Part shown: one piece after another, positions 184 to 13,493 of the stretch
Layout of the letters: every line of letters starts with the position of its first letter
How positions within the stretch are numbered: position 1 is the stretch's first letter
Virus record (IMG/VR): IMGVR_UViG_2690316346_000006
Span: 1 to 13,493 of that record
Reading direction: 5' to 3' (one strand)
Source: a virus
Taxonomy: Duplodnaviria > Heunggongvirae > Uroviricota > Caudoviricetes
DNA length: 13,493 nucleotides
Program-made: the position numbers and the translations under genes
The notes under the pieces: model-generated
Database searches by the model: none
Told to the model about the DNA's origin: nothing
What the model saw: the letters and a program-made list of their open reading frames with translations, nothing else

Positions 184-561
184 TCAAATCCCCAGTGAAG
201 TCACCATTGTCCTGAGAACTTGCAGAACGTCATGATCATAACTTCCATCCAAACCGCGACGGCGAATTGCTTCTCGTATTACCGGAAGCAGTTCGCTGGA
301 AATCTCGGTGCATATTTCACCTGATAATACGCTTGGCTCAAGTGAGAATATTGGTGAACTTACGGTCTTGGTCTCGACAGTTTCAGAGTCAGTGCCAACA
401 TTATAAAGCTCAACGAAAGCGGTCTTGATTTTCCGGGCCAGATCTTTTGCTGGCTCGCTTGCAATATCTTTCCCGATTTCTCGCAGCACAGAATGCAATG
501 TATGAGCTGCTGTTTTCTGTACATCAGACGGTAAATCTTTAAATTCCATCGTCAGCCTCAT
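184..561 (-). CDS. hypothetical protein, 125 aa, second gene of a coupled two-gene operon
   Basis: ORF track. Its ATG (559-561) overlaps the stop of the upstream ORF (561-563) as ATGA on the minus strand. An alternative ATG at 547-549 has a GAGG 8 nt upstream. No recognisable motif. Confidence 0.5.
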   Translation of the reverse strand: MRLTMEFKDLPSDVQKTAAHTLHSVLREIGKDIASEPAKDLARKIKTAFVELYNVGTDSETVETKTVSSPIFSLEPSVLSGEICTEISSELLPVIREAIRRRGLDGSYDHDVLQVLRTMVTSLGI

Positions 562-767
562 CAGTCAGTGTTTCTGGCTAACCAGCAACGCGCGCCAGAT
601 TCGGTTTTAAACGTTTTGCTTTTGGTATACGTCATGGCGGTAAACGTTCCATCCTGGTTAGGGAACACGCCGCACACCAGAGATTCGTTGTTGCCAAGAT
701 CGATAGTATCCATGCTGACCTCATTTCCCCTTAACGCCGGGGTGGCGGAACAAAAAACCTGCTGCAT
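561..767 (-). CDS. small hypothetical protein (68 aa as listed; more likely about 50 aa from the internal ATG at 711-713)
   Basis: The internal ATG is preceded on the minus strand by TGAGGTcagcATG, a good Shine-Dalgarno; the listed start at 767 has none. Coupled via ATGA to the downstream ORF. Confidence 0.45.
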   Translation of the reverse strand: MQQVFCSATPALRGNEVSMDTIDLGNNESLVCGVFPNQDGTFTAMTYTKSKTFKTESGARCWLARNTD

Positions 768-953
768 AGTTAAAGATTGAACCCTGCCGTCATGTTCTTA
801 CGCCTCGGGCTGGCTACTTAACCCCTGACCACTGTCTGGTAACTCGAAGTATTGCCCTGCATTCTGTGGGGCGGGGTGGGTTGACGCCTGAAACAATAGC
901 ATCATTATTTTTTTTGATGTAAATAGCATCGCTATTGTTTTTTGTTGGGGCAA

Positions 954-976
954 GAAAAAACCACCCTAAGGTGGTT
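954..976 (-). terminator. rho-independent terminator for the minus-strand repressor/antitoxin/toxin transcript
   Basis: Plus strand reads aaaaaACCACCctaaGGTGGTT. On the minus strand this is a 7-bp stem with a 4-nt loop followed by a U-run, about 20 bp after the ParE-like stop at 993. Confidence 0.55.
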
Positions 977-992
977 CTGTCGGCGGGAATAA

Positions 993-1283
993 TTAACTGT
1001 TTTTGCCTGGATACTGTCTTCGAGAATGCACAATATTTACTACTTCTATGCTTGATGCTGTTACTCGGTAAAGGATGATGTAGTTAGGATGAGTTACAAT
1101 TTCACGAAGACCAAGAACTCGCTCGCTTGGAGGATACAGGTAAGGATGCTCTGTGAGCGGCAAAACGGATGTTTCAATTCGAATTTTCATTCTGCGTGCT
1201 GCCGCGGGATTTTCTTTAGCTATGTAGGCTACGATCTGGCGCAAATCATCACGAGCAGATGGTAGCCATAAAACGGGTAACAT
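993..1283 (-). CDS. parE: type II toxin, ParE/RelE superfamily
   Basis: 96 aa; sequence pattern (LPVLWLPSARDDL ... REIVTHPNYIILYRV ... VVNIVHSRRQYP) is typical of ParE-family toxins. Start overlaps the antitoxin stop (TAATG on the minus strand). Confidence 0.75.
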   Translation of the reverse strand: MLPVLWLPSARDDLRQIVAYIAKENPAAARRMKIRIETSVLPLTEHPYLYPPSERVLGLREIVTHPNYIILYRVTASSIEVVNIVHSRRQYPGKNS

Positions 1284-1477
1284 TATTCACCTCTGTGAGT
1301 TGCAGCAGCAATTTGGGCAATAATTTGTTCCATTTCCGCCATTACCTCATCATGCGGAATCGCCGGGCGGGGATCCGCGAGGCTTGCTGCTACTTTGGCC
1401 CGCAGCCATTCGTTGTAACTATTTTCTTGCTCAACTGTCTCAAATTCTGAAACCATTGGGGAAAGGACTGTACTCAT
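1283..1477 (-). CDS. paaA: small antitoxin, PaaA2-like, partner of the ParE-like toxin
   Basis: 64 aa, directly upstream of and overlapping the toxin gene. Segment SPMVSEFETVEQENSYNEWLRAKVAASLADPRPAIPHDEV matches my recollection of PaaA2 from the O157 paaR2-paaA2-parE2 system. AGGAGA lies 10 nt upstream of the ATG. Confidence 0.65.
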   Translation of the reverse strand: MSTVLSPMVSEFETVEQENSYNEWLRAKVAASLADPRPAIPHDEVMAEMEQIIAQIAAATHRGE

Positions 1478-1496
1478 TTTACATATCTCCTCTGAT

Positions 1497-1997
1497 TTAG
1501 GCGCGACGGCCTTTTTGTGCAGCTAACCACCGCGCAACCGTACGATCCATTGATTCTTTTTTATCTTTCATCTCCTGAAGCATGTGTTCTTGATCTTCTT
1601 TCGGAAAAGCTCTGAACGTATGGATTAAATCTCGTTCCATCGGCTCTACGGCAAACGGTAGTTCATCCTCTGTTTGTTCTGTGTCTGCTGGTAATGCGAC
1701 TATGTTATCTTGCTGTGGTTCTCGACAATACATCCTTGCAATTTGCAGCAAATCTACCATGTCTGGCCTGATTGACTCAGGGGGAACTTTCAGTAAGCCA
1801 GCAAACTTTAGAACAGCCTCAAGGTTTAGTGGGGTTTGACCATTTAGGTAGTGACTTACCGCCCCTTGTGTTGAAAACCCCATAATTTCCGCCGCACGTT
1901 CCTGAGTCAATCCCAACTGAGATTTCTTTGCCATCCAGATTTCTTTCAGTCTTCTGGCGGCGTTGAGGTCGGTGTCTGACAATGATTTTCTTTTCAT
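1497..1997 (-). CDS. cI-like HTH (XRE-family) repressor, probably PaaR2/RacR-like; ORF track extends to a GTG at 2027
   Basis: HTH motif region QLGLTQERAAEIMGFSTQGAVSHYLNG. Sits divergent to a Cro-like gene with a palindromic operator between them. The ATG at 1995-1997 (MKRKSL...) is favoured over the GTG at 2027, which has no Shine-Dalgarno. Confidence 0.7.
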   Translation of the reverse strand: MKRKSLSDTDLNAARRLKEIWMAKKSQLGLTQERAAEIMGFSTQGAVSHYLNGQTPLNLEAVLKFAGLLKVPPESIRPDMVDLLQIARMYCREPQQDNIVALPADTEQTEDELPFAVEPMERDLIHTFRAFPKEDQEHMLQEMKDKKESMDRTVARWLAAQKGRRA

Positions 1998-2027
1998 ACA
2001 TCCAATTCTAATAAGATTGCTAATCAC

Positions 2028-2108
2028 TTTGAAATAGTATCACTATTTACTTTTAAAAATAACAGTGCTATTAATTATGCATTGGTAACACATCACATAG
2101 GGCGGATT
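2028..2108. promoter_or_regulatory. divergent promoter/operator region between the repressor and the Cro-like gene; contains the palindrome AAATAGT-atc-ACTATTT (2032-2048)
   Basis: AT-rich 81-bp intergenic region between divergently oriented HTH genes. A perfect 7-bp inverted repeat with a 3-bp spacer is read directly from the sequence. Confidence 0.55.
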
Positions 2109-2372
2109 ATGAATCTTGGAGAATATTTGCATCATTTTCATATAACCCAGAGTTCATTTGCTGAGATTGTTGGCGCATCCCAAGGGATGGTCAGCCACGT
2201 TATAACGGGGCGTGCAAAACTTACAGGAGAAAAAATATTACGTTGGTGTGAAGCAACGGGATGGGTGGTGACCCCACATGAGATTGACAGTAAAACCTAC
2301 CCCAACCCAACTGACGGCTTGCCTGCTGAGTTTCAGGCTAACACACAACCATCGGCGGGGGTTGATTCATGA
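2109..2372 (+). CDS. ydaS: Cro-like HTH regulator (YdaS-like); ORF track start 2082, internal ATG at 2109 preferred
   Basis: HTH motif region ITQSSFAEIVGASQGMVSHVITG. Divergent from the repressor. GGGCGG lies 5 nt upstream of the ATG at 2109. Confidence 0.65.
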   Translation: MNLGEYLHHFHITQSSFAEIVGASQGMVSHVITGRAKLTGEKILRWCEATGWVVTPHEIDSKTYPNPTDGLPAEFQANTQPSAGVDS

Positions 2373-2794
2373 AAATCAAGCATGAACACATCCGCATGGC
2401 GATGAAAGCCTGGGCGCATCCGGACGGTGAAAAAGTTCCGGCAGCTGAAATAACCAGGGTTTATTTCGAACTGGGAATGACGTTTCCGGTTCTGCATAAC
2501 GACAGCAAGCACAACACGCTTTATCTCAACACCCAAAAGATTTTCCGTTGGCTGGATAAAGACACCCCTGACGCTGTTGAAAAAATTCAGGCGTTGTTAC
2601 CTGCGATCGAAAGGGCAATGCCACCTCCGCTGGTGGCTCGAATGCGCAGCCACAGTTCAGCTTATTTTCGGGAACTGGTGGAGACGCATGAACGACTGGT
2701 GAGAGACGCTGATGATTTTGTCGCAGTGGCAATCGCCGGTTTCAATCAGATGAACCGTGGTGGCCCGGCAGGAAATGCTGTGGCAGTACATTGA
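2369..2794 (+). CDS. ydaT: YdaT-like protein (proposed CII-like switch component in Rac-type prophages)
   Basis: 141 aa beginning MKIKHEH..., which matches my recollection of the YdaT N-terminus. Start overlaps the Cro-like stop (ATGA), indicating coupling. Confidence 0.5.
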   Translation: MKIKHEHIRMAMKAWAHPDGEKVPAAEITRVYFELGMTFPVLHNDSKHNTLYLNTQKIFRWLDKDTPDAVEKIQALLPAIERAMPPPLVARMRSHSSAYFRELVETHERLVRDADDFVAVAIAGFNQMNRGGPAGNAVAVH

Positions 2795-2865
2795 CTGACA
2801 ATAGCCATATCGAATCGCTCCCGGCAACTCGTGAGTAAAAAGATTCGGTATCAGAAGAGGTGAGT

Positions 2866-3930
2866 ATGGCTAACGCCTGGCTCAGATTATGGCATGACAT
2901 GCCAAATGACCCTAAGTGGCGAACAATTGCCAGGGTGTCAGGGCAGCCAATTGCAACAGTGATGGCAGTGTATATCCACCTCCTGGTGAGCGCGTCACGA
3001 AATGTCACGCGAGGTCACATTGATGTCACGACAGAAGATTTGGCAAGTGCGCTCGACGTGACAGAAGAGGTAATTGATTCAATTTTGCAGACGATGCAGG
3101 GGCGGGTACTTGATGGTGATTTAATCACTGGATGGGAAAAACGCCAGGTGCTTAAAGAGGACAACGGCAATATTTCGCAAACCGCAAAATCTCCTGCAGA
3201 GCGCAAGAGGGCGCAGCGAGAGAGGGAAAGAAAGCGGGAACAAAATGGCGATTGTCACGGCGCGTCACGAAATGTCACGCACATGTCACGACGAGTCACG
3301 ACAGATACAGATAAAGATACAGATAAAGAAGATCAAAACACTATGGTCCATGGCGTAAAAAACGCCACGAACCAGGCAGGGGATGTTCAGACCGTCAATC
3401 CTGGTCAGCCAGCAGGCTCGACACCGGAAGCCGATTCAGCGTATGCGCTGAAAGCCGATTCGGGCGCTGTGCAGCAGGTGATGACCGCAAGGCCGGAGCA
3501 ATCACTCCAACTGCAGCAGCCTGAAGCCGATTCCGCCATTCAGCGGGAAGCCGATCGGGTAGCCCCGGAAAACACCGGGCAGCCTGTGGGACGAGTGGAT
3601 TATCCGGATGTGTTCGAACAGGTCTGGCGGGAATACCCGTTGCGTGCCGGGGCAAACCCGAAGAAATCCGCATTCAGTGCCTGGAAGGCCAGATTGCGCG
3701 AGGGGGTGCCACCAGAGACCATGCTGGATGGTGTGAGGCGTTACGCGAGATACCTGGCGGCGACCGGGAAAGCGGGAACGGAATTTGTTCAGCGAGCGAC
3801 GACGTTTTTTGGGCCGGACCGGAATTTTGAAAACCCCTGGTTGCTCCCGGTAAGCGGCACGAACAACCAGCGTTGTGTGAATCATATTTCTGAACCGGAT
3901 ACCGAAATTCCGCCGGGATTCAGGGGGTGA
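2866..3930 (+). CDS. phage replication initiator 1 (O-like / YdaU-like), with origin iterons embedded in the coding sequence
   Basis: ATG at 2866 preceded by GAGGTG (track start GTG 2860). Lies immediately upstream of a DnaC-like gene. Contains two clusters of GTCACG direct repeats. C-terminus ends IPPGFRG, as in the second initiator. Confidence 0.7.
   Translation: MANAWLRLWHDMPNDPKWRTIARVSGQPIATVMAVYIHLLVSASRNVTRGHIDVTTEDLASALDVTEEVIDSILQTMQGRVLDGDLITGWEKRQVLKEDNGNISQTAKSPAERKRAQRERERKREQNGDCHGASRNVTHMSRRVTTDTDKDTDKEDQNTMVHGVKNATNQAGDVQTVNPGQPAGSTPEADSAYALKADSGAVQQVMTARPEQSLQLQQPEADSAIQREADRVAPENTGQPVGRVDYPDVFEQVWREYPLRAGANPKKSAFSAWKARLREGVPPETMLDGVRRYARYLAATGKAGTEFVQRATTFFGPDRNFENPWLLPVSGTNNQRCVNHISEPDTEIPPGFRG
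2993..3030 (+). repeat. iteron cluster 1 of putative origin 1: four GTCACG/GTCAC repeats at 10-11 bp spacing
   Basis: Repeats begin at 2993, 3003, 3014 and 3025, read directly from the sequence. Confidence 0.6.
3254..3300 (+). repeat. iteron cluster 2 of putative origin 1: five GTCACG repeats at 10-11 bp spacing, followed by an ACAGATA-rich AT-rich stretch
   Basis: Repeats begin at 3254, 3264, 3274, 3285 and 3295. The roughly 45-bp unit is near-identical to cluster 1. Confidence 0.6.
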
Positions 3931-3936
3931 TGTGGC

Positions 3937-4683
3937 ATGAAAAACATTGCGGCAGCCGGGGTTCTTGAACGTATTCACAGACTTGCACCACAGGGGGCGG
4001 TTCCACCGTACCGGACGGTGGAGGAGTGGCGGGAATGGCAACTTGCTGAAGGACGAAAACGCAGCGAGGAGATTAACCGCCAGAATCGCCAGTTGCGGGT
4101 GGAAAAAATCCTGAATCGTTCGGGCATCCAGCCTCTGCACAGCAAATGCTCGTTTGCGAATTATCAGGTGCAGAACGACGGGCAAAAATACGCGCTGAGC
4201 CAGGCCAAATCCATAGCTGACGAACTGATGACCGGGTGCACGAATTTTGTGTTCAGCGGTAAAACCGGCACCGGGAAAAATCACCTTGCAGCGGCGATGG
4301 GTAACCGGCTGATGGCGAAGGGGCGCAGCGTGATTATCGTCACCGAGTCTGATGTCATGAGCGTGTTGCATGACAGCTACGACAACGGCAAATCCGGTGA
4401 AAAATTTTTACAGGAGCTTTGCGGGGTTGATTTGCTGGTCCTGGATGAAATAGGCATTCAGCGGGAGACGAAAAACGAGCAGGTGGTATTGCACCAGATA
4501 ATTGATCGCCGGACAGCATCACTGTGCAGTGTCGGGATGTTAACAAACCTGAATCATGCCGCAATGAGCACGCTTCTTGGTGAGAGGATTATGGACCGCA
4601 TGACCATGAACGGTTGTCGGTGGGTGACGTTTAACTGGGATAGCTGGCGTTCAAATGTCAGCTTTCCGGGAGTTGTGAAGTAA
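3937..4683 (+). CDS. DnaC-like helicase loader (YdaV-like), copy 1
   Basis: 248 aa with Walker A-like SGKTGTGKNHLAAA and Walker B-like DLLVLDEIG, as in DnaC. Follows the initiator with 6-bp spacing. Confidence 0.85.
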   Translation: MKNIAAAGVLERIHRLAPQGAVPPYRTVEEWREWQLAEGRKRSEEINRQNRQLRVEKILNRSGIQPLHSKCSFANYQVQNDGQKYALSQAKSIADELMTGCTNFVFSGKTGTGKNHLAAAMGNRLMAKGRSVIIVTESDVMSVLHDSYDNGKSGEKFLQELCGVDLLVLDEIGIQRETKNEQVVLHQIIDRRTASLCSVGMLTNLNHAAMSTLLGERIMDRMTMNGCRWVTFNWDSWRSNVSFPGVVK

Positions 4684-4704
4684 TTTTTGTTGGAGGATGT
4701 TTTA

Positions 4705-5430
4705 ATGGAAACTGTATTTGACGCACTGAAAGCACTGAAAAGAGCCTCTTCACATGTGGTGGCGTCCCGCCTTGGAATCAGCCGTGAAGATGCGGTCAAC
4801 GAACTGTGGAAACTGAAGCGCCGTGGTGAAGCGGATAACAAGGGTTCGATGTGGTGGCTGATTCAGGCTGGTGAAAGTGAACCAGTGTCACCGGTACCGA
4901 AAGTGACAGCGCAAATGCTGACTGAGGCGATTGAACAACATGGCCCACAAACGGCGGATGAGCTGGCACTGATGTTCGGGATTACCTCCCGCCGGGCGAA
5001 TTCATCGCTGGCCATGGCAATCAGCAAAGGGCGTCTGATTCGCGTGAATCAGGGCGGTAAATTTCGGTACTGCATACCGGGCGCTGATTTACCGGCAGAG
5101 CCGAAAGCCGCATCCATAGCGGAAACGGATGGTAAAGTCTTTCCTCAGCCAGCAGGTGTTGCGTTACCGGTACAGGAAGCTGCAACACAGGAAGAAATTA
5201 AAACAGAAACTGTGGCGGACATTGTGCAGTCGTTGCCATCGTTCACCGAAACGCAAGCGGATGACCTGGTTTTACCATCGCTGCATATGGCAAACCGCGA
5301 ACTGCGTCGGGCGAAAAGTCATGTCCAGAAGTGGGAGCGTGTCTGCGCCGCGTTGCGGGAGCTGAACAAGCACCGGGATATTGTTCGACAGATTGTCGAT
5401 TCCTCCGGTCGTATTGTGTCGGAAAAGTGA
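4705..5430 (+). CDS. hypothetical protein, possibly YdaW-like; present only in module 1
   Basis: ORF track lists a TTG start at 4687; the ATG at 4705 has GGAGG 8 nt upstream. No catalytic motif recognised. Confidence 0.55.
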
Positions 5431-5445
5431 TTGCCGGGGGCGCTT

Positions 5446-5868
5446 ATGGCAAAAGTATTTACACAGGAAGAGCGGGAAAAAATTAAGGGGCAGGTTGTTG
5501 AACTCGTACGCCAGAGTGGGCGCGAGACGTTACGACAACTGGAAGCTAAAACCGGGGCGACAAGATATTTAATAAGCGTTCTCGCCAGAGAGCTGGTTGC
5601 CAGTGGGGATGTATACAACTCTGGCTACGGGTTATTCCCGTCTGAACAGGCTCGTAAGGACTGGCAAAACGCCCGCAAAAAACTCTCGAGGGCAAAGCTG
5701 AAGAAACCATCTGTGGTTGATCCGGACCTTATCTGGTCATTACCGGACGGAGAAATACGCCGCTACGACAGACATCAGAACATAATCTGTCGCGAGTGCC
5801 GGAAGAGTGAAGTTATGCAGCGTGTACCGGCTTTCTATCAGGGTGATTTTCAGGAGGCGGTACTGTGA
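5446..5868 (+). CDS. hypothetical protein (about 140 aa), paralog of 9117-9539
   Basis: ATG at 5446 preferred over the listed TTG at 5431. The C-terminal ~90 aa are near-identical to the 9117-9539 product; the N-terminal ~50 aa are diverged. Confidence 0.6.
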   Translation: MAKVFTQEEREKIKGQVVELVRQSGRETLRQLEAKTGATRYLISVLARELVASGDVYNSGYGLFPSEQARKDWQNARKKLSRAKLKKPSVVDPDLIWSLPDGEIRRYDRHQNIICRECRKSEVMQRVPAFYQGDFQEAVL

Positions 5869-6282
5869 GTGAAATTAGCTATCAGGCTTCAATTACCGCT
5901 GGCATTCGCATCAAAGGAGAGGAGCATGGAAATAAAACCAGAAGATGAGTTAAGCAATATTGTTTTATTTCCGGTAAAAGAGGATAACCCTCGTAATCAG
6001 GTTAATTTTCTTTATGAGCCATCGGAAAGACCATATTGCCATCACGCTTCTGTCCGGGTTGACGAAAAAGAGCGTCAGGTCCGCTGTAAAATCTGCGGTG
6101 CGGTTGTGGAGCCGTTTGACTGGATGCTCTCTGTGGCGAAAAGAGAAACCAGACTGGCAGATGATGTAAGGCTCTTGCGCCAGGAGGAGCGGGAAAGGCG
6201 AAAAAATATAGAAAAGCTAATCCAGATTGAGCGTAACGCGAAAGCGCGGATACGCAGGGCGACAAAATCCAGAACTGAATAA
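5869..6282 (+). CDS. hypothetical small protein with a putative zinc-ribbon motif (C-H-H ... C-x2-C); copy A
   Basis: Listed start is GTG at 5869. An internal ATG at 5926 has a strong Shine-Dalgarno (AAGGAGaggagcATG) and gives 118 aa. Motif YCHHASVRVDEKERQVRCKICG. Two further copies lie at 9540-9925 and 10695-11035. Confidence 0.6.
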   Translation: MKLAIRLQLPLAFASKERSMEIKPEDELSNIVLFPVKEDNPRNQVNFLYEPSERPYCHHASVRVDEKERQVRCKICGAVVEPFDWMLSVAKRETRLADDVRLLRQEERERRKNIEKLIQIERNAKARIRRATKSRTE

Positions 6283-6309
6283 TTAAATTTAGCACTGTTA
6301 AAAATTTAA
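6283..6309. repeat. AT-rich palindrome TTAAATTT-N11-AAATTTAA immediately after the stop of the zinc-ribbon gene; repeated at 11036-11062
   Basis: Read directly from the sequence; present after copies A and C, and homology between them ends just beyond it. Confidence 0.4.
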
Positions 6310-6421
6310 TCCTTAATAACCTTTTTATTCTTTGCCACGGGTTCCGTGGCGGGAGATTATGCCGCGTGAACATGAAGATGAGGTGTACTGGCAATAGCGG
6401 ACACTACCATTTGTTCTTTTT

Positions 6422-7240
6422 TTAAGCAGCCATCTGATGATATTTTTCCCTGAAGGCTGCCGGGGAGATATTCCCCAGACGAGAGTGACGACGCTGACGA
6501 TTGTAGAAAATCTCAATGTATTCCCGTATTACTGAGATGGCTTCATCCCGGTTATTAAAACGATAGTGGCTCAGGCTCTCATTTTTCAGCGTTCCCCAGA
6601 AGCTTTCCATCGGAGCGTTGTCGTAACAGTTACCTTTACGCGACATTGATGTTTTCAGACCAGACTGCTCCTGTATGACCCGGTAATCGTATGCGCAGTA
6701 CTGTGAACCTCGATCAGAGTGGTGGATTAGCCCGGCAGGTGGGCGCTGGCTCCTGAGCGCCATAAACAGGGCTTTACCTGTCAGCTCTTTTGTCATGCGC
6801 TCTCCCATGGCGTAGCCGACAATTTCGCACGTATAAACATCTTTGATGCCAGCGAGGTACAACCATCCCTCCTGTGTGGCAACATACGTCAGGTCCGCCA
6901 CCCAGACCTGATTTGGTGCTGTAGGAGCGAACGTCTGGTTCAGCAGATTTGGCGCAACTGGCAGATTGTGGTTCGAGTTCGTAGTCGCTCTGAACTTGCG
7001 TTTCTGCTTACAGCGTAGCCTTAGCTCCTTACGAAGACGTGCCAGTCGGTCACGACCAACGATGATGCCATTCTCTGCCAGCTCCGTCTGGAGCCGCCGG
7101 GTTCCATATGTTTCGCGAGTGCGGATATGTGCCACCTTAATCTCCAGTTTTAGCCGCTCATCACTTTGTTTTCTGTCTGAGGGTTCATGCTGTACCCAGT
7201 TGTAATAACCGCTCCTGGATACACCAAATACCTGACACAT
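6422..7240 (-). CDS. IS3-family transposase OrfB (DDE catalytic part), expressed as an OrfAB fusion by -1 frameshifting
   Basis: 272-aa ORF with DDE-type transposase signatures (HSDRGSQY ... conserved acidic residues) in the -1 frame relative to orfA. Confidence 0.8.
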   Translation of the reverse strand: MCQVFGVSRSGYYNWVQHEPSDRKQSDERLKLEIKVAHIRTRETYGTRRLQTELAENGIIVGRDRLARLRKELRLRCKQKRKFRATTNSNHNLPVAPNLLNQTFAPTAPNQVWVADLTYVATQEGWLYLAGIKDVYTCEIVGYAMGERMTKELTGKALFMALRSQRPPAGLIHHSDRGSQYCAYDYRVIQEQSGLKTSMSRKGNCYDNAPMESFWGTLKNESLSHYRFNNRDEAISVIREYIEIFYNRQRRHSRLGNISPAAFREKYHQMAA

Positions 7241-7275
7241 CGCTTCAATGGGAAATTGTTGTCGCCATTGTTCGA

Positions 7276-7578
7276 TTAACGCGTATTTTTCAGCGACTCC
7301 TGTGCAAAATACGCTGTTGCTTTTTTTAATATATCTCGCTCAAGGCGAGCTTCATTTAACGCCTTACGCAGTTGCAGAATTTCAGATTCCAGTTCAGCCA
7401 CCGTGCGGGAACCAGGAGTACCGAGCCCTTTTCTGGCGGCGGTAACCCATTGTCCTAAAGTGCCTTCAGGAAGAGATAATCGGGAAGCGCCTTCACTGAT
7501 CGAAAGTTGATTTTCAAGAACCGTTCTGACAGCTTCGGCTTTGAACTCTTTAGAGTAACGTTGGGTTTTTCTGCTCAT
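7276..7578 (-). CDS. IS3-family transposase OrfA (HTH part)
   Basis: 100 aa, MSRKTQRYSKEFKAEAVRTV..., which I recognise as IS600/IS3-group OrfA. Confidence 0.8.
   Translation of the reverse strand: MSRKTQRYSKEFKAEAVRTVLENQLSISEGASRLSLPEGTLGQWVTAARKGLGTPGSRTVAELESEILQLRKALNEARLERDILKKATAYFAQESLKNTR
7320..7327 (-). promoter_or_regulatory. programmed -1 ribosomal frameshift site (A AAA AAG) within the orfA/orfB overlap of the IS3-family element
   Basis: Minus-strand sequence TTAAAAAAAGC lies where orfA and orfB overlap, as is typical of IS3-family elements. Confidence 0.6.
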
Positions 7579-7698
7579 TATTAGCTCCTTCTGATGCCAT
7601 TCTATTTCAGGAAGGAGTGTCCGTTAAACTCAGGCTACCTCAGGTTATTCGCTTCTGGGCATGGGCGGATCAACAAATGATAGACGGTAATGCAGATT

Positions 7699-7950
7699 GT
7701 AACGCTCGCGGCGTTACAAAAAGTGCAATAGATCGCATCACTTTTATGTCTGGTTTTGCTGATGCGTTAATTCAGGTTGGATGGCTGGTCGAAAATGACG
7801 GAGGGCTTTCTCTACCTAACTTTGAACGTCATAACGGAAAAAGCTCTAAAAAAAACGGGCGGTTACAAACGAGCGAGTAACAAAAATACGCGAACTGAAA
7901 CGAAAAGGTAACGCTGCCAGCGTTACACAAACGGATCAAAAAGCGTTACC
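7699..7950 (+). repeat. putative origin 2 binding sites: two copies of the palindrome GTAACGC-N5-GCGTTAC (7699-7717, 7908-7926) plus half-sites at 7862-7866 and 7943-7949
   Basis: Read directly from the sequence. Located inside the linker-coding region of initiator 2, analogous to the iterons inside initiator 1 but of a different sequence. Confidence 0.45.
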
Positions 7951-7952
7951 AG

Positions 7953-8000
7953 AGGAAGAGGAAGAGGAAGAGGAAGAGGAAGAGGAAGAGGAAGAGGAAG
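7953..8000 (+). repeat. perfect tandem hexanucleotide repeat (AGGAAG)8; encodes Glu16 in the frame that appears to be coding for the initiator 2 linker
   Basis: 48 bp of uninterrupted AGGAAG units counted directly from the sequence. Confidence 0.9.
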
Positions 8001-8355
8001 ATCTAAATACTGATCTCCCCCTCGCCAAAAACGAGCGTCTAAAAAATTCGAGCCGGAGGCTATTGAGCTGCCCGATTGGTTGCCGGAAACACTCTGGCAT
8101 GAGTGGGTCCGGTTCAGACAGGCATTGCGAAAACCGATTCGAACGGAGCAGGGCGCTAACGGGGCGATACGGGAACTGGAAAAATTCCGTCAGCAGGGTT
8201 TTACACCTGAGCAGGTGATTCGACACAGCATCGCCAATGAATACCAGGGCCTGTTCGCGCCGAAAGGTGTTCGGCCTGAGACGTTGCTCCGACAGGTTAA
8301 CACCGTCTCGTTGCCGGACAGTGCGATCCCGCCAGGCTTCAGGGGGTAACGGACC

Positions 8356-9102
8356 ATGAAAAATATTGCGACAGGCGGCGTTCTGGAACGCATCCGCCGA
8401 CTGACCCCGCCACATGTAACCGCCCCATTCAGAACGGTAGCGGAGTGGCGCGAGTGGCAACTTGCTGAAGGCCAGAAACGTAGCGAGGAGATCAACCGCC
8501 TGAATCGCCAGTTGCGGGTGGAAAAAATTCTGAATCGCTCAGGCATCCAGCCGTTGCACCGTAAATGCTCGTTTGCGAATTACCAGGTGCAGAACGACGG
8601 CCAGCGATACGCGTTAAGCCAGGCGAAATCCATCGCCGATGAACTGATGACCGGGTGTACAAATTTTGCGTTCAGCGGAAAACCTGGTACCGGGAAGAAT
8701 CACTTAGCGGCAGCTATCGGGAATCGCCTGCTGAAAGACGGTCAGACAGTGATTGTGGTTACCGTGGCTGATGTTATGAGCGCCCTGCACGCCAGCTATG
8801 ACGACGGGCAGTCAGGCGAAAAATTTTTGCGGGAGCTGTGCGAAGTGGATCTGCTGGTTCTTGATGAAATTGGCATTCAGCGCGAGACGAAAAACGAGCA
8901 GGTGGTGCTGCACCAGATTGTTGATCGCCGGACAGCGTCGATGCGCAGCGTGGGGATGCTGACAAACCTGAACTATGAGGTGATGAAAACATTGCTCGGC
9001 GAGCGGGTGATGGATCGCATGGTCATGAACGGCGGGCGCTGGGTGAATTTTAACTGGGAGAGCTGGCGTCCGAATGTTAGCCATTCGAGGGTTGTTAAGT
9101 AG
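8356..9102 (+). CDS. DnaC-like helicase loader, copy 2 (roughly 85% amino-acid identity to copy 1 by eye)
   Basis: 248 aa with SGKPGTGKNHLAAA and DLLVLDEIG motifs; same length and architecture as 3937-4683. Confidence 0.85.
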   Translation: MKNIATGGVLERIRRLTPPHVTAPFRTVAEWREWQLAEGQKRSEEINRLNRQLRVEKILNRSGIQPLHRKCSFANYQVQNDGQRYALSQAKSIADELMTGCTNFAFSGKPGTGKNHLAAAIGNRLLKDGQTVIVVTVADVMSALHASYDDGQSGEKFLRELCEVDLLVLDEIGIQRETKNEQVVLHQIVDRRTASMRSVGMLTNLNYEVMKTLLGERVMDRMVMNGGRWVNFNWESWRPNVSHSRVVK

Positions 9103-9116
9103 TTTCAGGAGGATTT

Positions 9117-9539
9117 ATGGCGAAACCTTTTACTCCCGAACAGCGGGAAGAACTGAAGACGCGAATTGTGGAACTCGTGCATCAGGACGGTCGGGTCACG
9201 ATTCGGCAGTTGTCAGATGAAACAGGTATCAGTCGTGCGTCTGTCGGTCGCTTATGCATAGAACTGGTCGCAAGTGGTGATGTATATAATTCTGGCTACG
9301 GCTTATTCCCGTCTGAACAGGCTCGCAAGGACTGGCAAAGCGCCCGCAAAAAACTCTCGAGAGTAAAGGTGAGGAAACCGGTTGTTGTTGATCCGGACCT
9401 TATCTGGTCATTACCTGACGGAGAAATACGCCGCTACGACAGGCGCCTGAATATAATCTGTCGCGAGTGCCGGAAGAGCGAAGCTATGCAGCGTGTACTG
9501 GCTTTCTATCAGGGTAATTTTCAGGAGGCGATACTGTGA
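9117..9539 (+). CDS. hypothetical protein, paralog of 5446-5868 with a diverged N-terminus
   Basis: 140 aa; C-terminal region (ELVASGDVYNSGYGLFPSEQARKDWQ ... IICRECRKSE ...) nearly identical to copy 1. Confidence 0.6.
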   Translation: MAKPFTPEQREELKTRIVELVHQDGRVTIRQLSDETGISRASVGRLCIELVASGDVYNSGYGLFPSEQARKDWQSARKKLSRVKVRKPVVVDPDLIWSLPDGEIRRYDRRLNIICRECRKSEAMQRVLAFYQGNFQEAIL

Positions 9540-10007
9540 ATGAAATTAGCTATCAGGCTTCAATTACCGCTGGCATTCGCATCAAAGGAGAGGAGCATGG
9601 AAATAAAACCAGAAGATGAGTTAAGCAATATTGTTTTATTTCCGGTAAAAGAGGATAACCCACGTAATCAGGTTAATTTTCTTTATGAACCATCGGAAAG
9701 ACCATATTGCCATCACGCCTCTGTCCGGGTTGACGAAAAAGAGCGTCAGGTCCGCTGTAAAATTTGCGGTGCAGTTGTGGAGCCATTTGACTGGATGCTC
9801 TCTGTGGCGAAAAGAGAAACCAGACTGGCAGATGATGTAAGGCTATTGCGCCAGGAGGAACAGGAAAGGCGGAGAAATATAGAAAAGCTGATACAGATTG
9901 AGCGTAACGCGAAAGCGCGGATACGCGGTAATGACTCCAACTTATTGATAGTGTTTTATGTTCAGATAATGCCCGATGACTTTGTCATGCAGCTCCACCG
10001 ATTTTGA
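9540..10007 (+). pseudogene. zinc-ribbon small gene copy B, 3'-truncated at 9925 by IS1; the ORF reads on into IS1, giving a chimeric 26-aa tail
   Basis: Homology to copy A ends exactly at the IS1 end (...gcgcggatacgc|ggtaatgac). Translation continues ...ARIR then [26 protein letters not shown] from the IS1 sequence. Confidence 0.7.
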
Positions 10008-10445
10008 GAACGACAGCGACTTCCGTCCCAGCCGTGCCAGGTGCTGCCTCAGATTCAGGTTATGCCGCTCAATTCGCTGCGTATATCGCTTGCTGATTAC
10101 GTGCAGCTTTCCCTTCAGGCGGGATTCATACAGCGGCCAGCCATCCGTCATCCATATCACCACGTCAAAGGGTGACAGCAGGCTCATAAGACGCCCCAGC
10201 GTCGCCATAGTGCGTTCACCGAATACGTGCGCAACAACCGTCTTCCGGAGACTGTCATACGCGTAAAACAGCCAGCGCTGGCGCGATTTAGCCCCGACAT
10301 AGCCCCACTGTTCGTCCATTTCCGCGCAGACGATGACGTCACTGCCCGGCTGTATGCGCGAGGTTACCGACTGCGGCCTGAGTTTTTTAAGTGACGTAAA
10401 ATCGTGTTGAGGCCAACGCCCATAATGCGTGCAGTTGCCCGGCAT
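9942..10445 (-). CDS. insB: IS1 InsB (expressed as an InsAB' fusion by frameshifting)
   Basis: 167 aa, ...[62 protein letters not shown]..., recognised as IS1 InsB. Confidence 0.9.
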
Positions 10446-10639
10446 CCAACGCCATTCATGGCCATATCAATGATTTTCTGGTGCGTACCGGGTTGAGAAG
10501 CGGTGTAAGTGAACTGCAGTTGCCATGTTTTACGGCAGTGAGAGCAGAGATAGCGCTGATGTCCGGCAGTGCTTTTGCCGTTACGCACCACCCCGTCAGT
10601 AGCTGAACAGGAGGGACAGCTGATAGAAACAGAAGCCAC
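10364..10639 (-). CDS. insA: IS1 InsA
   Basis: 91 aa, [42 protein letters not shown]..., recognised as IS1 InsA. Confidence 0.9.
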
Positions 10640-10694
10640 TGGAGCACCTCAAAAACACCATCATACACTAAATCAGTAAGTTGGCAGCATCACC

Positions 10695-11035
10695 AAGATG
10701 AGTTAAGCAATATCGTTTTATTTCCGGTAAAAGAGGATGACCCTCGTAATCAGGTTAATTTTCTTTATGAGCCATCGGAAAGACCATATTGCCATCACGC
10801 CTCTGTACGGGTTGACGAAAAAGAGCGTCAGGTCCGCTGTAAAATCTGCGGTGCGGTTGTGGAGCCGTTTGACTGGATGCTCTCTGTGGCAAAAAGAGAA
10901 ACCAGACTGGCAGATGATGTAAGGCTATTGCGCCAGGAGGAACAGGAAAGGCGGAGAAATATAGAAAAGCTGATACAGATTGAGCGTAACGCGAAAGCGC
11001 GGATACGCAGGGCGACAAAATCCAGAACTGAATAA
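10695..11035 (+). pseudogene. zinc-ribbon small gene copy C, 5'-truncated (lacks the first ~5 codons); mosaic of copies A and B
   Basis: Begins abruptly at the IS1 end with aagatgagttaagc..., matching codon 6 onward of copy A. Its 5' half carries copy-A-type variants and its 3' half copy-B-type variants. Stop at 11033-11035. Confidence 0.65.
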
Positions 11036-11104
11036 TTAAATTTAGCACTGTTAAAAATTTAATCCTTAACCGGAGGGATTTCTGCACCCTCAAATCATCA
11101 GGAG

Positions 11105-11122
11105 ACCGCCCGAAAGGGCGGT
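11105..11122 (+). other. stable GC-rich hairpin with a GAAA tetraloop (ACCGCCC-gaaa-GGGCGGT), 5 nt upstream of the ATG at 11128
   Basis: Read directly from the sequence. No U-run follows, so it is not a canonical terminator; it could occlude a ribosome-binding region or stabilise an mRNA. Confidence 0.4.
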
Positions 11123-11127
11123 AATGA

Positions 11128-11346
11128 ATGGTTACATTATTTAGAAAAAAATATCCGCGAAAGAGTAGAACAACAGAATTCCTGTTTCTCATTCTGTTTA
11201 TCGTGTTGATGACACCGATATCCCCGCTAATTTTTGTCTGGATAATCGGAAAAATAATTGAGCCAGTTATTGAATTGTATAACGACGTGGTATGGGCGTC
11301 ATTCAACACACTGCACAATAAAATTAATCCGTATAAGGAAAGCTGA
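11128..11346 (+). CDS. small hydrophobic (probably membrane) protein, 72 aa
   Basis: ORF track; hydrophobic core FLFLILFIVLMTPISPLIFVWIIG. No clear Shine-Dalgarno, so the call is tentative. Confidence 0.35.
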   Translation: MVTLFRKKYPRKSRTTEFLFLILFIVLMTPISPLIFVWIIGKIIEPVIELYNDVVWASFNTLHNKINPYKES

Positions 11347-11713
11347 TATGGCACTGACGAAAAAACAACGTGCAGAACTGCGCATGAAGTTCGGTGGTCG
11401 CTGCGCTTATTGCGGCTGCGAACTTGGCGAAAAGTGGCATGCAGACCATGTAAAACCGGTCATTCGTTTTGATGGAAATATGCTTCACCAGGAACGTGAC
11501 GATATATCCAACATGGTACCAGCATGCCACCCATGCAATCTGCACAAGCATTGCAGTAGCCTGGAAGATTATCGACGAATTATCAGTGATGGTCGTCGTG
11601 AATTCCTTGCGTCCGGGAAAGGCAAAGCGCTGGTTCGTATGGGATTGGTTGAAATGAAATCTGACCCGGTTGTGTTCTGGTTTGAAAAATATCAAGAAGG
11701 GGCTACGGCATGA
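11347..11713 (+). CDS. HNH endonuclease
   Basis: ATG at 11347 with AAGGAAA upstream (ORF track extends to 11258). Motifs CAYCGC ... HADH ... N ... ACHPCNLHKH are typical of HNH nucleases. Confidence 0.75.
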
Positions 11714-12375
11714 CCACTATTACCAAAGAGCGACTGCAATGGCTGGCTAACATTTCTGGCCGCGATGATATTGACGATATAGACGGCGGTGAAATTCGTG
11801 AACTGGCGCTTATCGCTCTGGCATCACTGGAAGCAGAGCCTGTAGCGGAATGCATTGTTGAAGATGGGGGCATGTGTATTGACGGGTTCGGTGAGTATGT
11901 GGGTCACTCGCTGCCTGATGGAATGCATGAGCTTTATGCTGCCCCGCGAATGCGACAACCTGATGGATGGAAAGCCGTAGCTGTAGCGTGGAAGGTGACG
12001 TTTACTCAAGTTGACCAGGAATCTAATACGTTCACTGCTATATATTTTGACAAAGCGGAAGTTGAGTGTTGGGTACGACTGCATAAAGCATGTGATTTTC
12101 GGGCAGATATAACACCGCTTTACGCAGCGCCGGCAGTGCCGGTTGCAGTAAACGACGACATGGCTTACGCATTCCATCACGCACTGTCAGATTCATCGCT
12201 TGGCTCTGATGAAATCGAAGAAATTAAAACCGGTTTGCGTGCTGCCTTTGCCAACGTCACTATCCAACCAGAGCCGATAGTGCCGGATGAAATCGGGCCA
12301 AACGATAGTAATACGTTTGATTATGTTGATGGCTGGAACGCCTGCCGCGCTGCCATGCTTAAGGGAGATAAATAA
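11710..12375 (+). CDS. hypothetical phage protein, 221 aa, acidic
   Basis: ORF track; start overlaps the HNH stop (ATGA). No motif recognised. Confidence 0.6.
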   Translation: MTTITKERLQWLANISGRDDIDDIDGGEIRELALIALASLEAEPVAECIVEDGGMCIDGFGEYVGHSLPDGMHELYAAPRMRQPDGWKAVAVAWKVTFTQVDQESNTFTAIYFDKAEVECWVRLHKACDFRADITPLYAAPAVPVAVNDDMAYAFHHALSDSSLGSDEIEEIKTGLRAAFANVTIQPEPIVPDEIGPNDSNTFDYVDGWNACRAAMLKGDK

Positions 12376-12740
12376 TGATTAATCGAACCAAACTGGAGCA
12401 CATTCTCGAATATGCCAGGCAGCAGAAATGTATTGGGCAACTTTGTAAAATTCCACCAGGAGATATGGTTGAAATCGTGGAAATGGCCATGCGTAAGGCT
12501 GGCAACTCTCCGGTAGCTCCGGCTGGCTGGATAAGCTGTAGTGATGCAGTTCCTGCTGAATATTGCGATGTGATTCTTCTCGATGATCTCGGGAATGTAT
12601 TCCCCGGTTCCTGGGATAAGGTTTTTTGCCCCACTCGTGGCGGGAATAAGATGGCTTTTGTGGACAAAGACGGCGTTGAAGTAGAGAGCTCAACTCACTG
12701 GATGCCGCTACCGGAACCACCGCAGGAGGTGAATCAATGA
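12375..12740 (+). CDS. hypothetical phage protein with a DUF551-like C-terminus
   Basis: 121 aa; WISCSDAVP ... THWMPLPEPP resembles the DUF551 signature as I recall it. Confidence 0.6.
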   Translation: MINRTKLEHILEYARQQKCIGQLCKIPPGDMVEIVEMAMRKAGNSPVAPAGWISCSDAVPAEYCDVILLDDLGNVFPGSWDKVFCPTRGGNKMAFVDKDGVEVESSTHWMPLPEPPQEVNQ

Positions 12741-12820
12741 CCTGGCCTGAGGCATTCACCACGGTAGGAATTGCGATGGCGGTGGCGCTGGTGGTGTATT
12801 CGATTTGCCGTTGGGGTTAA
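12737..12820 (+). CDS. unlisted small ORF, 27 aa (MTWPEAFTTVGIAMAVALVVYSICRWG), predicted single transmembrane helix
   Basis: Perfect Shine-Dalgarno AGGAGGTGA 6 nt upstream of the ATG at 12737. Start overlaps the upstream stop (ATGA). A rho-independent terminator follows immediately. Below the length cut-off of the ORF track. Confidence 0.5.
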   Translation: MTWPEAFTTVGIAMAVALVVYSICRWG

Positions 12821-12825
12821 CAAAC

Positions 12826-12857
12826 AAAAACCCCGGATTGATGGTCCGGGGTTTTTG
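12826..12857 (+). terminator. rho-independent terminator (AAAAA-CCCCGGA-ttgatgg-TCCGGGG-TTTTT), potentially bidirectional
   Basis: 7-bp GC-rich stem, 7-nt loop and a T5 run, read directly from the sequence; 6 bp after the stop of the small ORF. Confidence 0.8.
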
Positions 12858-13195
12858 AAGGAAACAAAACAGAAACAGCAATTGCCGTTACCTGTTGTTA
12901 CCATGGCAAGTAAACGTATCTCAGGCGAGCGCATTGCGCCGTTCTGACGCAGATAAACTAGCCTGGATAGATGGTGCTGGCAATAAAAAATAGCGTTTTC
13001 TTATCGGTGTCGGTAAGATTGCTGCGGGTGCTTGAGGCTGTCTGCCTCGGGTATGTCACTGTAAGGCAGACAGAGAAAAGCCCCAGTTAACATTACGCGT
13101 CCTGCAAGACGCTTAACATTAATCTGAGGCCCAATCTATGTCTCACAAATGTAGGTTAGCCTCTTACGTGCCGAAAGGCAAGGAGAAGCAGGCTA

Positions 13196-13350
13196 TGAAG
13201 CAGCAAAAGGCGATGTTAATCGCCCTGATCGTCATCTGTTTAACCGTCATTGTGACGGCACTGGTAACGAGGAAAGACCTCTGCGAGGTACGAATCCGAA
13301 TCGGCCAGACGGAGGTCGCTGTTTTCGTAGACTACGAATCTAGAGAGTAA
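13196..13350 (+). CDS. hok: Hok/Gef-family type I toxin (closest by memory to HokD/RelF or HokC)
   Basis: MKQQKAMLIALIVICLTVIVTALVTRKDLCEVRIRIGQTEVAVFVDYESRE; AAGGAG lies 9 nt upstream of the ATG at 13196. The ORF track extends in frame to an ATG at 13138. Confidence 0.85.
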
Positions 13351-13442
13351 GAGTGACCAGGCGGGAGAGTAATCTCCCGCCACCTTTGATGTGTCAGGCA
13401 TCCTCAACGCACCCGCACTTAACCCGTTTCGGCGGTTTTTTT

Positions 13443-13493
13443 GGTAATGACTCCAACTTATTGATAGTGTTTTATGTTCAGATAATGCCCGAT
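13443..13493 (-). mobile_element. IS1 terminal fragment (insB-proximal end), element in minus orientation with its body downstream of the window
   Basis: Identical to 9926-9976 and the exact reverse complement of 1-51. Confidence 0.85.

What the first reader, a model, noticed from the sequence alone, without database searches (positions are those of the whole stretch)
6359..8349. Second replication initiator inactivated by an in-frame IS3-family insertion and two homopolymer frameshifts
Removing the 1264-bp element joins ATG-CCG-CGT-GAA-CAT-GAA-GA to G-GTT-ATT-CGC... in frame (MPREHEEVIRFWAWADQQ...). The frame stops at 7880, but a basic linker (KRAVTNERVTKIRELKRKGN...) continues in the -1 frame from the A8 run at 7848-7855. 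A second -1 shift at the A6 run at 8041-8046 (or the C5 run at 8017-8021) is needed to reach the conserved C-terminus ending IPPGFRG. Restoring one base at each tract gives a coherent protein of about 220 aa. The insertion sequence is flanked by AGA and GGT, so no 3-bp target duplication is visible. Either this is a multi-hit pseudogene whose DnaC-like partner remains intact, or the homopolymer tracts are sequencing errors or slippage-prone switches.
Basis: partly seen in the sequence, partly recalled or inferred. Interest (0 to 1): 0.7.

Follow-up and report, generated by a model that had tools for sequence, protein, structure and literature searches.

The report
IS600-broken prophage ydaU pseudogene, Shigella sonnei
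This is an ordinary dead copy of a cryptic-prophage replication-initiator gene (ydaU family) in Shigella sonnei, broken by an IS600 insertion, a two-base homopolymer expansion and a ten-base deletion; the apparent "in-frame" start codon left of the IS is unrelated chromosomal DNA.

Summary
Window 7643-8349 is the 3' 86% of a YdaU-family prophage replication-initiator gene, next to an intact DnaC-like ydaV (8356-9102). The 1264-bp element (6379-7642) is IS600 at 99.9% identity.

Alignment with intact 262-aa homologues shows three lesions:
- **IS600 after codon 35.** The first 104 nt of ydaU are absent from the window.
- **A6 to A8 at 7848-7855.** This is +2, not a one-base change.
- **A 10-bp deletion (CCCCCTAAAT) at 8017-8022.** The A6 run at 8041-8046 is unchanged.

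Undoing these lesions reproduces an intact homologue exactly, apart from the Glu repeat.

The "ATG CCG CGT GAA CAT GAA GA" left of the IS is the core yiaD-bisC intergenic spacer, so the in-frame join is coincidence. Complete S. sonnei genomes carry the same IS600 as a simple insertion with a GGT target duplication. They also carry the same A8 and deletion, so these are inherited lesions, not read errors.

The window is a whole draft contig. Its left IS600 junction, and an IS1 junction, are hybrid. They are probably scaffolding chimeras, or less likely real IS-IS recombination.

Verdict: an ordinary multi-hit pseudogene of low interest.

The parts
6306..6378 (.). 73-bp fragment of the core-chromosomal yiaD-bisC intergenic spacer.
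   Evidence: 100% identical to the spacer in 5421 of 5426 complete E. coli genomes. It lies between yiaD and bisC in the annotated record. Exact boundaries and the 11-bp overlap TTAATCCTTAA with prophage sequence (6306-6316) come.
6379..7642 (-). IS600 (IS3 family), 1264 bp. orfA is 7276-7578 and orfB is 6422-7240, both on the - strand. The orfA/orfB overlap carries an A7 slippery run at 7321-7327.
   Evidence: 99.9% identical over its full length to elements annotated 'IS3-like element IS600 family transposase'. Pfam finds HTH_Tnp_1 in orfA and HTH_21/rve/rve_3/rve_2 in orfB. Flanks are AGA and GGT here, but GGT|IS|GGT in complete S. sonnei genomes.
7643..8349 (+). Remnant of a YdaU-family prophage replication-initiator gene, from the third base of codon 35 to the stop codon. 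It is read in three different frames because of two internal lesions.
   Evidence: Aligned with the intact 262-aa gene of E. coli COL60J (WP_001737256.1, 'phage replication initiator YdaU family protein'). The repaired translation is identical to the intact L005 protein except for the Glu repeat. The intact homologue matches PHROG 2509 'replication initiation protein' at 3.9e-89 over its full length.
7848..7855 (+). Lesion 1: an A8 run where intact genes have A6 (+2 nt). It puts TAA 7878-7880 in frame.
   Evidence: The run is A6 in intact L002 and L005, and A9 in S. sonnei 53G. It is A8 in all 17 other S. sonnei loci that carry the IS600|ydaU junction and in L006, which has no IS there.
7951..8001 (+). 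Perfect hexanucleotide repeat (GAGGAA), 8.5 copies, encoding the poly-Glu stretch of the linker. It is an in-frame length polymorphism, not a lesion.
   Evidence: TRF reports period 6, 8.5 copies and 100% matches. Copy number is 3, 4, 6, 7 or 8 among related loci.
8017..8022 (+). Lesion 2: scar of a 10-bp deletion. One CCCCCTAAAT unit was lost between CCCCCT direct repeats, which shifts the frame a second time.
   Evidence: Intact genes read CTGATCT-CCCCCTAAAT-CCCCCTCGCC and the window reads CTGATCT-CCCCCTCGCC. All S. sonnei loci examined share the deletion except L005.
8356..9102 (+). ydaV-type DnaC-like helicase loader, an intact 248-aa ORF starting 7 nt after the ydaU stop.
   Evidence: Pfam IstB_IS21 and Bac_DnaA. 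NCBIfam PRK12377 at 8e-154 and DnaC equivalog at 1.7e-91. PHROG 50 'DnaC-like helicase loader'. 81% identical to the first copy at 3937-4683. The identical protein is indexed in 5731 blocks.

Best explanation
Window 7643-8349 is a dead ydaU-family gene, the replication initiator of a Rac-like cryptic prophage of Shigella sonnei. It sits upstream of its intact DnaC-like partner ydaV.

It was inactivated by three independent events:
1. Expansion of an A6 run to A8, at 7848-7855.
2. A 10-bp deletion between CCCCCT direct repeats, at 8017-8022.
3. Insertion of IS600 after codon 35. This originally made a GGT 3-bp target duplication.

The two frameshifts came first. Some S. sonnei genomes have them without the IS.

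In this contig the IS600 left flank is not ydaU. It is a 73-bp piece of the yiaD-bisC chromosomal spacer. So this IS600 copy is a hybrid joint between two different IS600 insertion sites.

That joint is most likely an artefact of scaffolding and gap closure in a short-read draft assembly (my estimate is about 65%). Otherwise it is a real IS600-IS600 homologous recombination. Either way, the 'in-frame' ATG is a coincidence.

Nothing suggests that the gene is expressed or switchable. When intact, the protein would have a phage-type N-terminal domain and a DnaT-like C-terminal domain ending IPPGFRG. By analogy with lambda O/P and DnaT/DnaC, it would recruit the YdaV loader and host DnaB to the prophage origin. 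That function is inferred and was not tested here.
For: Identity of the gene:
- 1418 E. coli genomes match the region. The match is annotated 'phage replication initiator YdaU family protein' in the ydaT-ydaU-ydaV order.
- The intact homologue matches PHROG 2509 at 3.9e-89.
- Its residues 170-262 match the DnaT C-terminal domain (PDB 2ru8, E 9.3e-5; 9zbt, E 3.2e-4), including the terminal IPPGFRG.

Lesions:
- The three-way DNA alignment shows 104 nt missing at the 5' end, A8 against A6, and the 10-bp gap.
- Removing AA, restoring CCCCCTAAAT and adding the 104 nt gives a protein identical to intact L005, apart from 10 extra Glu.

Inheritance:
- The same IS600|ydaU junction, A8 and 10-bp deletion occur in 17 other S. 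sonnei loci. These include complete genomes such as CP104423.1 and FDAARGOS_90 (CP014099.2), which is named as S. sonnei in PMC5447701.
- The 87-aa product that needs both the junction and A8 is indexed in 481 blocks.
- The insertion is simple, with GGT|IS600|GGT, in L004, L008, L010-L013, L030, L032, L033 and L035.

Order of events:
- L006 has A8 and the deletion but no IS in ydaU. 53G has A9 and the deletion but no IS.

Left flank:
- It is the yiaD-bisC spacer.

Chimera indications:
- The window is the whole 13,493-bp draft contig CXEQ01000138.1.
- Its three prophage pieces map to 2.19-2.21 Mb, 3.08-3.10 Mb and 1.98-1.99 Mb of one complete genome.
- Neither internal IS has a target duplication, and the yiaD/IS600 and P2/IS1 junctions were seen only in this contig.
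- The repeated ORF regions are mosaics of the two prophage alleles.
- All five draft-assembly loci with similar accession prefixes (L034, L036-L039) have N gaps at or inside the left part of this same IS600.
Against: - No read-level data were available. I could not show directly that the left junction is an assembly artefact.
- Complete genomes L007 and L031 also have a non-ydaU left flank at this IS600 copy. Real IS600-mediated rearrangement at this site therefore does occur.
- I could not retrieve the yiaD-bisC region of any S. sonnei genome to see whether an IS600 sits there.
- The species assignment of the source contig rests on 99.4-99.9% identity to S. sonnei genomes and on the accession series. 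I did not read a record title.
- The function of YdaU is inferred from family names, gene order and the DnaT-like domain only.
Confidence: 0.9

Rival explanations
1. The left junction is real. In this isolate, homologous recombination between an IS600 copy in the yiaD-bisC spacer and the IS600 copy in ydaU produced an inversion or translocation. This left one hybrid IS600 with mismatched flanks (AGA and GGT). The pseudogene diagnosis itself does not change.
For: - Flanks without a target duplication are the classic signature of IS-IS recombination.
- Two complete genomes (L007, L031) have yet another non-ydaU flank at this IS copy.
- IS-mediated rearrangements are well documented in Shigella (PMC7373316).
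Against: - The same 13.5-kb draft contig contains a second hybrid IS junction (IS1, 9927-10694), an 11-bp microhomology joint (6306-6316) and allele mosaics in repeated ORFs.
- It strings together three loci that are 0.2-1.1 Mb apart in a complete genome.
- Draft assemblies with similar accession prefixes have N gaps exactly at this IS.
Confidence: 0.3
2. One reading: a simple IS insertion into an ORF that starts at ATG 6359, plus two single-base homopolymer frameshifts at 7848-7855 and 8041-8046. The gene would then be restorable to about 220 aa by adding one base at each tract.
For: Adding one base at each tract does give an open frame ending IPPGFRG. The join across the IS is in frame.
Against: - The 20 nt before the IS are yiaD-bisC spacer DNA.
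- Intact genes have 35 other N-terminal codons. PHROG profiles 2509, 9474 and 3926 align from residue 1, 4 and 3 of the intact protein, so they include these codons.
- Intact genes have A6, not A9, at the first tract. They have the same A6 at the second tract.
- The real second lesion is a 10-bp deletion.
Confidence: 0.02
3. The frameshifts are sequencing or assembly errors in homopolymers, and the gene downstream of the IS is really open.
For: The contig comes from a draft assembly. One strain (53G) shows A9 instead of A8, so the tract length does vary between records.
Against: - A8 and the 10-bp deletion recur in 17 other loci from independent assemblies, including many complete genomes.
- The A8-dependent 87-aa product is indexed in 481 blocks.
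- A 10-bp deletion is not a homopolymer error.
Confidence: 0.02
4. The A-run is a functional slippage site, by transcriptional slippage or -1 ribosomal frameshifting on A AAA AAC, or a phase-variable switch that controls initiator production.
For: - The shift needed at A8 is -1, and the tract is slippery.
- Tract length differs between lineages: A6, A8 and A9.
- Slippage on runs of 8-9 A/T is known in Shigella genes (my own knowledge, not checked here).
Against: - Intact homologues encode one continuous ORF with A6.
- The downstream 10-bp deletion and the IS600 insertion would still destroy the product.
- The operon promoter side is cut off by IS600.
- No conserved stimulatory element was looked for or seen.
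Confidence: 0.03

Closest known systems
ydaU-ydaV of the E. coli Rac-type cryptic prophages (RefSeq 'phage replication initiator YdaU family protein' plus the ydaV ATP-binding protein)
   Same: - Same gene order: cro-like gene, ydaT, ydaU, ydaV, DUF1627/DUF977.
- 94-97% DNA identity over the remnant.
- The repaired protein is identical to intact 262-aa members.

   Different: - This copy lacks codons 1-35, carries IS600, and has the +2 and -10 lesions.
- The K-12-type 285-aa YdaU is a different allele with a DUF1376 hit, seen. The 262-aa type has no Pfam hit.
IS600 (IS3 family) insertions and IS-driven pseudogenisation in Shigella (Hawkey et al. 2020, PMC7373316)
   Same: - 1264 bp, 99.9% identical to annotated IS600, with the orfA/orfB arrangement.
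- A 3-bp (GGT) target duplication in complete S. sonnei genomes.
- It disrupts a coding sequence, like hundreds of other insertions in these genomes.

   Different: In this contig the left flank belongs to another locus, so no duplication is visible.
Lambda O/P and E. coli DnaT/DnaC (an initiator or primosome adaptor followed by a helicase loader)
   Same: - An initiator gene lies directly upstream of a DnaC-like AAA+ loader.
- The YdaU C-terminal 93 residues align with the DnaT C-terminal domain and share the terminal IPPGFRG.

   Different: - The N-terminal domain is a phage type (PHROG 2509) unrelated to DnaT.
- No detectable Pfam lambda-O family hit.
- Function not tested.

Membership tests
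YdaU-family phage replication initiator (PHROG 2509; RefSeq name) | Full-length sequence similarity to family members | tested here: met
   The remnant aligns base for base with intact genes from codon 35 to the stop. The repaired translation equals intact L005 except for the Glu repeat. The intact homologue hits PHROG 2509 at 3.9e-89 over residues 1-262.
YdaU-family phage replication initiator (PHROG 2509; RefSeq name) | One uninterrupted ORF of about 262 aa with the N-terminal 35 residues | tested here: not met
   The 5' 104 nt are absent. There is a +2 lesion at 7848-7855, a premature TAA at 7878-7880, and a -10 lesion at 8017-8022. It is a pseudogene of the family, not a functional member.
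YdaU-family phage replication initiator (PHROG 2509; RefSeq name) | Position between ydaT and a DnaC-like ydaV in a prophage early-right operon | tested here: inconclusive
   ydaV follows directly (8356-9102), and complete S. sonnei genomes have cro-ydaT-ydaU'::IS600 upstream. In the window itself the upstream genes are replaced by unrelated DNA.
YdaU-family phage replication initiator (PHROG 2509; RefSeq name) | Origin binding and helicase-loader recruitment activity | not testable with these tools
   Only inferred from family names, gene order and the DnaT-like C-terminal domain.
IS600 / IS3 family | Element length, TG...CA termini with imperfect inverted repeats, and near-identity to IS600 | tested here: met
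   1264 bp with TGAGGT...ACCTCA ends. 99.9% identical over the full length to annotated IS600.
IS600 / IS3 family | orfA (HTH) and orfB (DDE rve) in overlapping frames with a slippery A-run | tested here: met
   HTH_Tnp_1 in 7276-7578(-). HTH_21/rve/rve_3/rve_2 in 6422-7240(-). An A7 run lies at 7321-7327. Fused 385-aa products are called in related loci.
IS600 / IS3 family | 3-bp direct target duplication at a simple insertion | tested here: not met
   The window has AGA on the left and GGT on the right. The same copy in complete S. sonnei genomes has GGT on both sides. The window junction is therefore a hybrid, not a primary insertion.
Programmed frameshift or phase-variable (contingency) gene | The shifted frame organisation is conserved in functional homologues | tested here: not met
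   Intact homologues (L002, L005) are single ORFs with A6 and the extra 10 bp.

The most novel reading that the evidence does not exclude
The A-run (A6, A8 or A9 in different lineages) and the adjacent (GAGGAA)n repeat (3-8 copies) lie in the linker-coding part of the initiator gene. This part also holds clustered GCGTTAC palindromes that could be the prophage origin.

The most novel reading not excluded has two parts. First, this segment is a hypermutable, slippage-prone origin/linker region. Second, RNA-polymerase or ribosome slippage on A8 still yields some N-terminal-plus-linker YdaU fragment that acts with the retained YdaV loader.
Probability: 0.03. Interest if true: 0.3.

Novelty: already known. 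Interest (0 to 1): 0.08.

Why it matters
It matters little biologically. IS600 insertions, small indels and IS-mediated rearrangements that kill prophage genes are a well-described hallmark of Shigella genome decay (PMC7373316).

The practical value is cautionary, in two ways.

First, an in-frame ATG across an IS element meant nothing here. The IS flanks came from different loci, and the contig itself is probably a scaffolding chimera of three cryptic prophages.

Second, frameshift "repairs" guessed from homopolymers can be wrong. Here the true changes were +2 and -10, not single bases. Annotation pipelines and readers should compare with intact homologues before reconstructing pseudogenes.

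Tried and rejected
1. **Look-up of the 356-aa product from GTG 2860.** It found nothing because the start codon was called differently. I used ydaV of the first module instead.
2. **Both unusual junctions against 5,426 complete E. coli genomes.** I searched yiaD-spacer|IS600 and prophage|yiaD-spacer. No record covers 80% or more of either query. This is uninformative for Shigella, which the collection does not hold.
3. **Exact-pattern scan of the left junction in the species-representative genome collection.** It gave 0 hits. That was expected if S. sonnei is not a separate representative.
4. **Supplements of Hawkey et al. 2020, searched for yiaD, bisC, ydaU and ydaV insertion sites.** Nothing relevant turned up. 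A search for the accession prefix CXEQ01 found no paper.
5. **Pfam on the intact 262-aa YdaU and on the 354-aa paralogue.** No family was found. NCBIfam gave only a sub-threshold DnaT C-terminal hit.
6. **Sequencing-error explanation.** Considered and rejected.
7. **Independent-genes idea for 7617-7880 and 8080-8349.** Considered and rejected. Both are collinear parts of one 262-aa gene in intact homologues.
8. **Structure prediction and large protein-database searches.** Not run, because sequence evidence was already decisive.
Full report
**What is in the window.**
The ORF list and raw sequence show two phage-type replication modules.
- The first module is intact. It has an initiator-like gene at 2866-3930 and a DnaC-like gene at 3937-4683.
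- The second module has an intact DnaC-like gene at 8356-9102. Upstream of it are only two ORF fragments, 7617-7880 and 8080-8349.
- A 1264-bp element with TG...CA ends lies at 6379-7642.

The stated runs are all present: A8 at 7848-7855, C5 at 8017-8021 and A6 at 8041-8046. So are the stop at 7878-7880 and the AGA/GGT flanks. The raw observation is therefore accurate.

**Identity of the gene.**
Window 7643-8355 matches 1418 complete E. coli genomes at 90-98% identity. In intact copies the match lies in a 262-aa CDS annotated "phage replication initiator YdaU family protein". That CDS sits between ydaT and ydaV of a Rac-like prophage.
- The intact homologue hits PHROG 2509 "replication initiation protein" over its full length (E 3.9e-89). 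It has no Pfam family.
- Its last 93 residues align with the C-terminal domain of primosomal protein DnaT (PDB 2ru8, E 9.3e-5; 9zbt, E 3.2e-4). The alignment includes the terminal IPPGFRG.
- The downstream gene is a DnaC-like loader. It is 81% identical to the first copy.
- The two initiators share only that C-terminal tail and weak N-terminal similarity.

**The real lesions.**
I aligned the window with an intact gene (COL60J) and a near-identical E. coli copy. This shows four things.
- Native ydaU sequence resumes at 7643, the third base of codon 35. The first 104 nt are absent.
- The A-run is A8 where intact genes have A6.
- The window lacks 10 bp (CCCCCTAAAT) between two CCCCCT repeats at the C5 run.
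- The (GAGGAA) repeat is 30 nt longer, which stays in frame.

The A6 run at 8041-8046 is identical in intact genes. I removed two A's, restored the 10 bp and added the 104-nt 5' end. The resulting protein is identical to the intact L005 protein except for ten extra Glu.

**The left flank.**
Window 6306-6378 includes the supposed start "ATG CCG CGT GAA CAT GAA GA". It is 100% identical to the yiaD-bisC intergenic spacer, which is present in 5421 of 5426 E. coli genomes. The in-frame join is therefore a one-in-three coincidence. The lack of a target duplication means that the two flanks come from different IS600 insertion sites.

**Population context.**
An exact look-up of the second YdaV returned Shigella sonnei chromosomes. 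HE616528.1 is strain 53G and CP014099 is FDAARGOS_90, according to PMC5447701.
- In L004, L008, L010-L013, L030, L032, L033 and L035 the same IS600 sits at the same ydaU position as a simple insertion, GGT|IS600|GGT.
- All 17 other S. sonnei loci with this junction carry A8 and the 10-bp deletion.
- L006 has A8 and the deletion but no IS here. 53G has A9 and the deletion but no IS. L005 is intact, with A6 and the full 10 bp.
- The 87-aa product that depends on the junction and on A8 is indexed in 481 collection blocks.

The lesions are therefore inherited and are not read errors. The frameshifts predate the IS insertion. The element is IS600 at 99.9% identity.

**Is the contig arrangement real?**
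The window is the entire draft contig CXEQ01000138.1. Several observations suggest that it is not a true arrangement.
- In one complete genome (CP104423.1), window 1-6268 maps to 2.19-2.21 Mb, window 6379-9926 to 3.08-3.10 Mb, and window 9927-13493 to 1.98-1.99 Mb.
- Neither the internal IS600 nor the internal IS1 has a target duplication.
- The yiaD/IS600 and P2/IS1 junctions occur only in this contig among all fetched loci.
- The repeated ORF segments (5942-6316 and 9613-9926) are mosaics of the two prophage alleles.
- The prophage/spacer joint rests on 11 shared bases.
- Five draft assemblies with similar accession prefixes have N gaps at or inside the left part of this very IS600.

I therefore favour a scaffolding or gap-closure chimera, at about 65%.

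On the other side, complete genomes L007 and L031 also have a rearranged left flank at this IS copy. Real IS600-IS600 recombination therefore remains a live alternative, at about 30%. IS-mediated rearrangement is well documented in Shigella (PMC7373316). My recollection is that gap-closing tools merge ends on overlaps of about 10 bp. That is own knowledge and was not tested.

**Mechanism and verdict.**
When intact, YdaU would presumably bind the prophage origin and hand the YdaV loader and DnaB to it. This rests on analogy with lambda O/P and DnaT/DnaC and is inference only. Here the gene is dead three times over, and IS600 cuts it off from its operon promoter.

The idea of a slippage switch is not supported, because functional homologues have A6 in a single ORF. 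This is an ordinary, already well-understood kind of pseudogene in a decaying prophage of an IS-rich pathogen. Interest is low.

Noticed in passing
window 9927-10694 (flanks 9613-9926 and 10695-11008): The internal IS1 also lacks a target duplication (…GGATACGC|IS1|AAGATGAG…). It is flanked by a 314-bp direct duplication of the same prophage ORF at 97% identity. The right side (9927-13493) is collinear with a third prophage remnant next to ttcA/dbpA in complete S. sonnei genomes. This is a second hybrid joint in the same contig.
   Followed up: partly
window 5942-6316 and 9613-9926: These repeated ORF segments are mosaics of the alleles that complete genomes keep separate in two prophages, with partly reciprocal swaps at 6093-6114. 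The resulting 118-aa product was found in S. sonnei context only in this contig. This suggests repeat mis-assembly or gene conversion.
   Followed up: partly
window 6306-6316: Prophage sequence and the yiaD-bisC spacer are joined through an 11-bp shared string, TTAATCCTTAA, 2 nt from where the yiaD start codon would be. yiaD itself is absent. This is either a microhomology joint or an assembler merge.
   Followed up: partly
window 7699-7717, 7908-7926 and 7943-7949: The heptamer GCGTTAC occurs 10 times in the window against about 1 expected (0 of 200 shuffles reach 10). Five copies lie inside the ydaU remnant, forming two palindromes (GTAACGC-N5-GCGTTAC and GTAACGCTG-C-CAGCGTTAC) plus a single copy. 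They may be initiator binding sites, or an origin inside the initiator gene as in lambda.
   Followed up: partly
window 7951-8001: A perfect (GAGGAA)8.5 repeat encodes poly-Glu. Copy number is 3, 4, 6, 7 or 8 in otherwise near-identical S. sonnei genomes, so this is a fast-evolving in-frame VNTR.
   Followed up: partly
L009 (S. sonnei 53G, HE616528.1), ydaU A-run: 53G has A9 instead of A8. This restores the frame at that site and gives a 224-aa ORF that ends only because of the 10-bp deletion. It is either tract-length drift in a dead gene or a record-specific error.
   Followed up: no
window 7321-7327 (- strand): An A7 run (TTA AAA AAA GCA) sits in the orfA/orfB overlap of IS600, where IS3-family elements use programmed -1 frameshifting. 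It is the only plausible programmed frameshift site in the region. Some annotations call the fused 385-aa product.
   Followed up: no
window 3871-3930 and 8290-8349; L002:3897-4685: Both initiator types in the window end in …PD(S/T)xIPPGFRG, the same tail as E. coli DnaT. In each case the gene is followed by a DnaC-type loader gene, mirroring the dnaT-dnaC pair. The tail may be a loader- or helicase-docking motif.
   Followed up: partly
window 993-1477 (- strand): A ParE-toxin / PaaA2-antitoxin gene pair lies in the first prophage remnant, according to the Pfam calls on the collinear S. sonnei loci. A hok-family toxin gene lies at 13195-13350.
   Followed up: no
window 1-54 and 13440-13493: Both contig ends are IS1 termini in inverted orientation. 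This is typical of short-read contigs that break at multicopy IS elements.
   Followed up: yes
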